A stretch of DNA of 64,000 nt from Escherichia coli. Its GTDB lineage: Bacteria; Pseudomonadota; Gammaproteobacteria; Enterobacterales; Enterobacteriaceae. Positions 30,069-30,489 of this stretch are shown piece by piece (position 1 is the first letter of the stretch; every line of letters starts with the position of its first letter). Position numbers and translations under genes: made by a program. The stretch lies in the NCBI RefSeq assembly GCF_046105845.1, contig NZ_CP151004.1, one strand, 5' to 3'. Below the pieces are notes generated by a model. The model made no database searches. It had not been told where the DNA came from and was given only the letters and a program-made list of their open reading frames with translations.

Positions 30069-30256
30069 CTAAAGTCTCCAAAAAATTATTATCGGCAATG
30101 TCGAAACTTGCCGTTATATCTGCCACCGGAACGGGGTAACAGAGTTTATGTTTTACCAGGGCGACCGTATCCTGCCGGAAGCGCTGGTTATTCACAATCG
30201 ATTTAACACACCATTTACATTAAATTTTAGTGCTCAGCGACACTATTTTTCATCAG

Positions 30257-30463
30257 GTTGCACTCTCTCACATTTTTTGCGGTTGCACCTTTCAAAAATG
30301 TTAACTGCCGCAGAGAAAAAGTCTGAGTTATTTTTTAATCCCTGTCATATCGATTTCTATTATTAACATTTCATTCATTTTTAAGCTTGCTACGCAGGTC
30401 ACATTTAACATAGTTGCACAAAGTTGCAACATCATGGATATTTCACGATAACGTTAAGTTGCA
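30257..30463. promoter_or_regulatory. put control region with five GTTGCA PutA operator motifs
   Basis: GTTGCA at ~30257, 30282, 30413, 30423 (palindromic GTTGCAAC) and 30458 within the 421-bp putP-putA intergenic. Confidence 0.7.
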
Positions 30464-30489
30464 CCTTTCAGAACAACAGGAGTAATGGC

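What the first reader, a model, noticed from the sequence alone, without database searches (positions are those of the whole stretch)
30069..30489. put control region with five GTTGCA PutA operator motifs
The 421-bp divergent putP-putA intergenic contains exactly five GTTGCA hexamers, one of them in the palindrome GTTGCAAC overlapping the putA promoter side. This matches the known PutA autorepression architecture. Expected, but a good internal control that the locus is intact.
Basis: partly seen in the sequence, partly recalled or inferred. Interest (0 to 1): 0.2.

Follow-up and report, generated by a model that had tools for sequence, protein, structure and literature searches.

The report
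Known E. coli PutA operator region
This is the ordinary, already characterised control region between the E. coli proline-utilisation genes putP and putA, carrying its five known PutA repressor binding motifs intact.

Summary
Window 30069-30489 is a 421-bp spacer between putP (minus strand) and putA (plus strand). It carries GTTGCA five times on the plus strand, at 30257, 30282, 30413, 30423 and 30458. A sixth, minus-strand reading comes only from the palindrome GTTGCAAC at 30423-30430. About 0.35 copies are expected by chance, and none of 20,000 shuffles reached five.

The spacer differs from E. coli K-12 by four substitutions and one 1-bp indel, none inside a hexamer. The first 57 residues of PutA, which include its DNA-binding domain, are identical to the crystallised E. 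coli protein.

Across 78 Enterobacteriaceae species, sites 1-4 are essentially invariant, with fixed 25-bp and 10-bp spacings. Site 5 occurs only in E. coli and its closest relatives. Sites 3 and 4 overlap the conserved predicted putA promoter.

Three minor extras emerged. The strain carries two minority alleles, an A directly 5' of site 3 and a T6 run where most genomes have T7. A 69-codon "hypothetical protein" annotated in this spacer in RefSeq genomes looks like an artefact.

The parts
28560..30068 (-). putP, sodium/proline symporter (502 aa), transcribed away from the spacer
   Evidence: The ORF is. It matches NCBIfam NF011948 at 1143 bits over residues 1-501.
30069..30489 (.). put control (putP-putA) intergenic region, 421 bp, 38% G+C
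   Evidence: Most of it is present at 95% identity or better in 5,412 of 5,426 complete E. coli genomes.
30257..30262 (+). Operator 1 (GTTGCA), with invariant extended block AGGTTGCACT at 30255-30264
   Evidence: The hexamer is 100% conserved in 74 other Enterobacteriaceae spacers. The site-1/site-2 pair is present in 78 of 78 species.
30282..30287 (+). Operator 2 (GTTGCA), with invariant block GGTTGCACC at 30281-30289; it lies 25 bp from operator 1
   Evidence: the spacing is 25 bp in 77 of 78 species. CGGTTGCACC equals the PutA/2rbf consensus cGGTTGCACc in PMC4655474.
30413..30418 (+). Operator 3 (GTTGCA); it overlaps the predicted putA -35 hexamer TTGCAC (30414-30419). The strain has A at 30412 where K-12 and all other species have G
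   Evidence: The site is exact in 77 of 78 species. The exact 40-mer carrying the A allele occurs in 106 of 5,075 matching E. coli genomes.
30423..30430 (+). Operator 4, the palindrome GTTGCAAC, 10 bp from operator 3; it lies in the spacer of the predicted putA promoter
   Evidence: It is present in 78 of 78 species, and the block GTTGCACAAAGTTGCAACAT (30413-30432) is invariant.
30458..30463 (+). Operator 5 (GTTGCA), 32 bp upstream of the putA ATG and downstream of the predicted -10. It shares the 13 bases GTTGCACCTTTCA with operator 2
   Evidence: repeat family D3. Column conservation is only 27%. An exact plus-strand site downstream of operator 4 occurs in 5 of 78 species, all Escherichia. 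It is absent in E. albertii, Salmonella, Citrobacter, Klebsiella and Enterobacter.
30414..30442 (+). Predicted putA sigma-70 core promoter: -35 TTGCAC (30414-30419), 17-bp spacer, -10 GATATT (30437-30442). An alternative sits 10 bp upstream: -35 TTAACA (30404-30409) and -10 CAACAT (30427-30432)
   Evidence: Read from the sequence. GATATT, TTAACA and CAACAT are each at least 90% conserved across species. Neither pair passed the strict consensus scan. The transcription start was not determined here.
30477..30482 (+). putA ribosome-binding site CAGGAG
   Evidence: The block is at least 90% conserved and lies 7 nt before the ATG.
30490..34452 (+). putA, trifunctional repressor / proline dehydrogenase / P5C dehydrogenase (1320 aa). 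The ribbon-helix-helix DNA-binding domain is residues 1-52 (30490-30645)
   Evidence: NCBIfam NF008772 at 2660 bits. Residues 1-57 are identical to PDB 4o8a, and residues 1-52 match 2gpe, 2ay0 and 2rbf.
30331..30336 (.). T6 run between operators 2 and 3 (K-12 has T7). It shortens the site-2 to site-3 spacing to 131 bp
   Evidence: The exact 50-mer with T6 occurs in 282 of 5,406 E. coli genomes. This spacing ranges from 130 to 136 bp among species.
30388..30403 (+). CRP-like sequence TGCTACGCAGGTCACA, a candidate only. Its left half is a one-mismatch inverted operator (GTAGCA on the minus strand)
   Evidence: It has 2 mismatches to TGTGA-N6-TCACA. TCACATTTAAC is conserved. The left half is an exact inverted GTTGCA in E. 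albertii, Salmonella and Kluyvera.

Best explanation
This is the E. coli put control region: the shared regulatory DNA of the divergent putP and putA genes, carrying the five GTTGCA operators bound by the N-terminal ribbon-helix-helix domain of PutA.

When proline is scarce, PutA sits on these sites. Sites 3 and 4 lie one helical turn apart and overlap the putA core promoter. Site 5 lies just downstream of it. Together these three block putA transcription. Sites 1 and 2, 25 bp apart and about 190-215 bp upstream of the putP start codon, act on putP.

When proline is abundant it reduces the PutA flavin, PutA moves to the membrane as an enzyme, the operators empty, and both genes are expressed.

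Shown here: the motifs, their enrichment, their identity to K-12, their conservation across species, and the identity of the PutA DNA-binding domain. Taken from the literature: binding, repression and the proline switch. Inferred: the promoter positions and which sites act on which gene.
For: - **Flanking genes and repressor.** putP and trifunctional putA flank the spacer. The RHH domain is identical to the crystallised E. coli PutA.
- **Motif count and enrichment.** There are five plus-strand GTTGCA copies against 0.35 expected, and 0 of 20,000 shuffles reach five.
- **Identity to K-12.** All five hexamers and nearly all flanking bases match K-12.
- **Conservation across species.** Sites 1-4 are 100% conserved against a spacer mean of 64%. 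Their spacings of 25 and 10 bp are fixed in 78 species. The invariant blocks GGTTGCAC(T/C) match the published base-readout consensus cGGTTGCACc for PutA/2rbf (PMC4655474).
- **Literature on function.** PutA binds only this spacer in genomic SELEX and represses putA and putP in the absence of proline (PMC8249747; PMC5879082). Fluorescent 420-bp put control DNA is bound with a Kd of about 45-58 nM (PMC5293562).
- **Promoter overlap.** The conserved -10-like GATATT and the -35-like TTGCAC inside site 3 place sites 3 and 4 within the putA core promoter.
Against: Nothing contradicts this reading. There are four gaps.
- The paper that mapped the operators (Zhou et al. 2008, J Mol Biol 381:174) is not in the held library. 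The operator numbering and the 3+2 division of labour are therefore from my memory.
- Transcription starts were not determined. The strict promoter scan did not call the putA promoter, and its single minus-strand hit was no more than the shuffles gave (1 found, 1.5 expected).
- Site 5 is not conserved outside Escherichia, so comparative data cannot support its function.
- The strain's A at 30412 replaces a G that is otherwise invariant next to site 3. This might weaken that site.
Confidence: 0.96

Rival explanations
1. The five hexamers are a chance cluster in an AT-rich spacer and have no shared function.
For: The 64-kb window as a whole is not enriched: 58 matches against 54.9 expected. Another stretch, 16402-16763, holds four copies.
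Against: None of 20,000 composition-matched shuffles of the region reach five. All five copies are on the same strand. Sites 1-4 are invariant in position and sequence across 78 species while the spacer averages 64% conservation.
Confidence: 0.01
2. The conserved GTTGCA(C/A) blocks are kept mainly as promoter elements, because TTGCAC and TTGCAA resemble the -35 consensus TTGACA. PutA binding would then be secondary.
For: TTGCAC within site 3 sits 17 bp from the conserved GATATT. TTGCAA within site 4 sits 17 bp from GATAAC.
Against: Sites 1 and 2 point the wrong way to serve as -35 elements for putP. Conservation extends to the G 5' of the hexamer and the C 3' of it, matching the PutA base-readout consensus rather than a -35 element. 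GATAAC is poorly conserved. The literature shows direct PutA binding. A dual role for site 3 is compatible with the main explanation.
Confidence: 0.02
3. The motifs lie inside a real small gene: the 69-codon minus-strand 'hypothetical protein' that RefSeq annotates in this spacer. Their conservation would then reflect coding constraint.
For: PGAP annotates WP_000979516.1 or WP_000979512.1 at this position in the annotated E. coli genomes inspected here, including K-12, and most hits list a hypothetical protein under the match.
Against: In this window the T6 allele truncates the ORF to 35 codons. A T6 genome has no CDS annotated there. Most other species have no minus-strand ORF of 60 codons or more in the spacer. 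Conservation is patchy and does not follow a coding pattern; the middle of the ORF is the least conserved part of the spacer. Site 5 lies outside the ORF.
Confidence: 0.01

Closest known systems
E. coli K-12 put control DNA (putP-putA spacer, five PutA operators; Zhou et al. 2008, J Mol Biol 381:174; PDB 2rbf)
   Same: It has the same genes, orientation and five GTTGCA sites at the same relative positions. The window differs from K-12 at 5 of 422 aligned columns, and the PutA DNA-binding domain is identical.
   Different: There are four substitutions and one 1-bp deletion (T6 versus T7). One substitution, A for G at 30412, is directly 5' of site 3. One, A for T at 30471, lies 8 bp 3' of site 5. 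Both the A allele and the T6 allele are natural minority alleles in E. coli.
put control regions of Salmonella and other Enterobacteriaceae
   Same: They share the divergent putP-putA layout and invariant sites 1-4. Spacings are 25 bp, 130-136 bp and 10 bp. They also share the conserved GATATT and the CAGGAG ribosome-binding site.
   Different: They lack site 5. Some carry an extra inverted or direct GTTGCA about 100 bp upstream of the putA ATG (14 of 78 species). Others carry an inverted copy at about -42 (5 of 78).
Pseudomonas putida PutA RHH domain and its DNA complex (PDB 2jxg, 2jxh, 2jxi)
   Same: The N-terminal RHH domain is homologous (E = 3.8e-20 over residues 1-45). From memory, it recognises the same GTTGCA motif.
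   Different: It is a more distant organism, and its put spacer was not examined here.
Other ribbon-helix-helix repressors with tandem operators (CopG, Arc, MetJ)
   Same: A beta-ribbon inserts into the major groove of short repeated sites, and adjacent sites lie one helical turn apart, as with sites 3 and 4. CopG-family chains are weak sequence relatives (E about 1e-4).
   Different: In PutA the RHH domain is fused to a 1,300-residue membrane-associating enzyme. The switch is flavin reduction and relocation to the membrane, not binding of a small co-repressor (PMC5293562).

Membership tests
E. coli-type PutA-autoregulated put control region | Divergently transcribed putP and putA flank the spacer | tested here: met
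   putP is 28560-30068 on the minus strand (NF011948, 1143 bits). putA is 30490-34452 on the plus strand (NF008772, 2660 bits).
E. coli-type PutA-autoregulated put control region | [quoted passage not shown] | tested here: met
   It matches the trifunctional equivalog over residues 1-1320. Residues 1-57 are identical to PDB 4o8a, and residues 1-52 match 2gpe, 2ay0 and 2rbf.
E. coli-type PutA-autoregulated put control region | Five GTTGCA operator motifs lie in the spacer | tested here: met
   Exact matches are at 30257, 30282, 30413, 30423 and 30458, all on the plus strand. They are enriched about 15-fold, and 0 of 20,000 shuffles reach five.
E. coli-type PutA-autoregulated put control region | Operator sequences and positions are the same as in the characterised K-12 DNA | tested here: met
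   The window differs from K-12 at 5 of 422 aligned columns, none in a hexamer. CGGTTGCACC at site 2 equals the published PutA/2rbf consensus.
E. coli-type PutA-autoregulated put control region | Operators overlap the promoters they repress | tested here: inconclusive
   Sites 3 and 4 overlap conserved -35 and -10 candidates for putA. No transcription start data were available, and the strict scan did not call the promoter. putP promoters were not resolved.
E. coli-type PutA-autoregulated put control region | PutA physically binds the sites and represses both genes, and proline relieves the repression | not testable with these tools
   This is known for K-12 from the literature (PMC8249747, PMC5879082, PMC5293562). 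It was not measured for this allele.

The most novel reading that the evidence does not exclude
The five-operator layout would not be the ancestral state. The ancestral state would be a fixed 2+2 core: sites 1 and 2 spaced 25 bp apart, and sites 3 and 4 spaced 10 bp apart, across Enterobacteriaceae. Site 5 would be a recent gain in the E. coli / E. whittamii lineage. Other lineages appear to have added extra GTTGCA copies independently at other positions, about -100 or -42 from the putA ATG. Operator number near the putA promoter would then be an evolutionarily tunable setting of autorepression strength. This strain's minority alleles, A next to site 3 and the T6 spacer run, could shift that setting slightly.
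Probability: 0.5. Interest if true: 0.25.

Novelty: already known. Interest (0 to 1): 0.1.

Why it matters
It matters little beyond quality control. The result confirms that the put locus in this window is intact and is regulated like the textbook E. coli system. PutA is a classic trigger enzyme that switches between DNA-bound repressor and membrane-bound dehydrogenase.

The species comparison adds a modest point. Four operators are under strict constraint and the fifth is specific to one lineage. That could guide experiments on how operator number sets the basal level of proline catabolism.

The comparison also flags a probable spurious "hypothetical protein" annotation that RefSeq's pipeline places in this spacer.

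Tried and rejected
- **Primary paper.** I could not read the operator-mapping paper or related author manuscripts; none is held (Zhou 2008 PMC2665032, PMC2666929, PMC1390768, PMC2242416, PMC2664619, PMC3715380, PMC5650515, PMC3234912). Operator numbering and the 3+2 functional split therefore rest on memory. Full-text searches for PutA with GTTGCA found only PMC4655474. A search on PutA52, put intergenic, PutA operator and putC returned only unrelated papers.
- **Structured RNA.** An Rfam search of 29800-30800 at E <= 1 found no RNA family. A riboswitch or small RNA from a described Rfam family in the spacer is therefore not supported.
- **IHF site.** I recalled from Salmonella work that IHF assists put repression. 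There is no match to WATCAANNNNTTR with one mismatch or fewer inside 30069-30489; the nearest is 30006-30018, inside putP. IHF is not supported by this simple test.
- **CRP sites.** Only one candidate has 2 mismatches or fewer (30388-30403). I keep it as a candidate, not a finding.
- **Consensus promoter scan.** It returned one minus-strand hit, -35 ATGAAA at 30253-30248 and -10 TAAAAT at 30229-30224, abutting site 1. That is no more than the shuffles gave, and its -10 is poorly conserved. putP promoters remain unresolved.
- **Small ORF in the spacer.** I rejected it as a real gene.
- **Chance clustering.** Rejected.

Full report
**Observation.** Window 30069-30489 lies between a 502-codon minus-strand ORF (28560-30068) and a 1320-codon plus-strand ORF starting with ATG at 30490. 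The first ORF matches the NCBIfam PutP equivalog (NF011948, 1143 bits). The second matches the trifunctional PutA equivalog (NF008772, 2660 bits, residues 1-1320).

An exact scan finds GTTGCA on the plus strand at 30257, 30282, 30413, 30423 and 30458. It finds one minus-strand match at 30425-30430, which is just the other reading of the palindrome GTTGCAAC at 30423-30430. 'Exactly five' is correct for one strand or for loci. A both-strand count gives six.

**Is it more than chance?** The window as a whole is not enriched for the hexamer: 58 found against 54.9 expected. The spacer is strongly enriched. The rest of the window predicts 0.34 copies per 421 bp, giving Poisson P(>=5) = 3e-5. Dinucleotide-preserving shuffles of the spacer itself average 0.35 with a maximum of 4, and none of 20,000 reach 5. 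GTTGCA is the commonest hexamer in the spacer, and no other 421-bp stretch of the window has more than four copies. All five copies point the same way, in the putA coding direction.

**Comparison with the characterised DNA.** Most of the spacer is present at 95% identity or better in 5,412 of 5,426 complete E. coli genomes. Aligned with K-12, it differs at four substitutions and one 1-bp indel, none inside a hexamer. Two of these differences deserve comment.
- Window 30412 is A where K-12 has G, directly 5' of the third hexamer. The exact 40-mer with A occurs in 106 of 5,075 matching genomes.
- The T run at 30331-30336 is T6 where K-12 has T7. The exact 50-mer with T6 occurs in 282 of 5,406 genomes.

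Both are natural minority alleles. The first 57 PutA residues are identical to the E. coli protein in PDB 4o8a, and residues 1-52 match the isolated ribbon-helix-helix domain entries 2gpe, 2ay0 and 2rbf.

**Species comparison.** One scan of GTDB species representatives with PutA residues 1-200 returned 80 loci across Enterobacteriaceae. In 78 of them I could delimit the putP-putA spacer, and all were divergent as here.

| Feature | Result |
|---|---|
| Site-1/site-2 pair present | 78 of 78 species |
| Spacing of sites 1 and 2 | 25 bp in 77 species |
| Site 4 (GTTGCAAC) present | 78 of 78 species |
| Site 3 exact, 10 bp upstream of site 4 | 77 of 78 species (E. whittamii has GTTGCG) |
| Spacing of sites 2 and 3 | 130-136 bp |

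The window's 131-bp spacing between sites 2 and 3 falls within that range.

In a MAFFT alignment of the window with 74 other distinct spacers, mean column identity to the window is 64%. The hexamers of sites 1-4 score 100%. The runs of at least 90% conserved columns include AGGTTGCACT, GGTTGCACC and the 20-mer GTTGCACAAAGTTGCAACAT. The invariant core GGTTGCAC equals the published base-readout consensus for PutA/2rbf, cGGTTGCACc (PMC4655474).

Site 5 behaves differently. Its column identity is only 27%. An exact plus-strand copy downstream of site 4 exists in just 5 of 78 species, all Escherichia. E. albertii, Salmonella, Citrobacter, Klebsiella, Enterobacter and the rest lack it.

Some lineages carry other extra copies. 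Fourteen species have one about 100 bp upstream of the putA ATG; in E. coli that position holds the one-mismatch GTAGCA on the minus strand at 30388-30393. Five species have an inverted copy at about -42.

**Anatomy around the operators.** GATATT (30437-30442) is at least 90% conserved and lies 17 bp after TTGCAC (30414-30419), which is inside site 3. Ten bp upstream, the conserved TTAACA (30404-30409) and CAACAT (30427-30432) form an alternative pair. With either pair, sites 3 and 4 fall inside the putA core promoter. Site 5 lies just downstream, between the -10 and the conserved CAGGAG ribosome-binding site (30477-30482).

The strict consensus scan called neither pair. It gave only one minus-strand hit next to site 1, no more than the shuffles gave. 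Promoter positions are therefore inference, and I did not resolve the putP promoters. Sites 1 and 2 lie 189 and 214 bp from the putP ATG. No Rfam family matches the region, and there is no IHF consensus inside the spacer.

**Mechanism.** From the held literature:
- PutA is a trigger enzyme whose N-terminal RHH domain binds operators between putA and putP and represses both genes when proline is low.
- With proline it associates with the membrane and acts as proline dehydrogenase and P5C dehydrogenase.
- Genomic SELEX finds this spacer as its only target (PMC8249747; PMC5879082).
- 420-bp put control DNA is bound with a Kd of about 45-58 nM (PMC5293562).

From my memory of Zhou et al. 2008, which is not held: five GTTGCA operators were mapped. 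Three are needed for putA repression and two for putP. The crystal complex used operator 2, and flanking bases tune affinity. The data here fit that picture. They suggest that the three putA-side sites are 30413, 30423 and 30458, and that the two putP-side sites are 30257 and 30282.

**Rivals.** I considered three alternatives and rejected each: chance clustering, conservation purely as -35 elements, and coding constraint from the annotated 69-codon minus-strand ORF.

The case against the ORF has five parts.
- The T6 allele truncates it to 35 codons in this window.
- A T6 genome has no CDS annotated there.
- Most other species have no comparable ORF.
- Its central part is the least conserved stretch of the spacer.
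- Site 5 lies outside it.

**Verdict.** This is the known E. coli put control region, intact. Interest is low and the feature is already known. The only mildly new points are the restriction of site 5 to the E. coli lineage against a strictly conserved 2+2 core, and the two minority alleles in this strain.

Noticed in passing
window ~30227-30435 (minus strand); K-12 locus L001 2659-2868: RefSeq/PGAP annotates a 69-aa 'hypothetical protein' (WP_000979516.1 or WP_000979512.1) inside the put spacer, over operators 1-4. In this window the T6 allele truncates it to 35 codons. A T6 genome has no CDS there, and most other Enterobacteriaceae lack an ORF of 60 codons or more. It is probably an annotation artefact.
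   Followed up: partly
window 27069-28412 (+): A 447-aa ORF lies between efeU and putP. It has no Pfam domain; PipB2_N scores 16.6 bits against a cutoff of 27. It is annotated as hypothetical in strains BEC1-S17-ESBL-09 and 19KM1831 but is absent from K-12, which has a different short ORF there.
   Followed up: partly
window 16402-16763: This is the second-densest GTTGCA cluster in the window: four copies on both strands at 16402, 16623, 16641 and 16758. By offset to locus L083 it falls in the ycdZ/ycdY area. It is probably chance, because genomic SELEX found no PutA target outside the put spacer in K-12.
   Followed up: no
window 18000-42999: The best match among 5,426 complete E. coli genomes is only 98.4-98.5% identical over 25 kb, although gene order is standard (ghrA, phoH, efeUOB, putP, putA, rutR, rutA-G, wrbA, agp). 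The source may be a lineage poorly represented among complete E. coli genomes, or a Shigella or a cryptic clade.
   Followed up: no
window 30191-30220, 30299-30304, 30363-30368, 30399-30409: Several strongly conserved non-operator blocks in the spacer are unexplained. TTAACA occurs three times on the plus strand (30203, 30363, 30404), with an inverted TGTTAA at 30299. TCACATTT lies 13 nt upstream of both site 2 and site 3 (repeat D2). The block TTCACAATCGATTTAACACACCATTTACAT is also conserved. These may be putP promoter, CRP or other factor sites.
   Followed up: partly
window 30126-30133 and 30165-30182: The conserved blocks CCGGAACG and CGTATCCTGCCGGAAGCG lie 60-115 bp upstream of the putP ATG, possibly in the putP leader. 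Their function is unknown and was not examined.
   Followed up: no
L007 (E. whittamii) put spacer: E. whittamii has GTTGCG in place of GTTGCA at site 3. It is the only one of 78 species without an exact site 3, and it keeps site 5.
   Followed up: no
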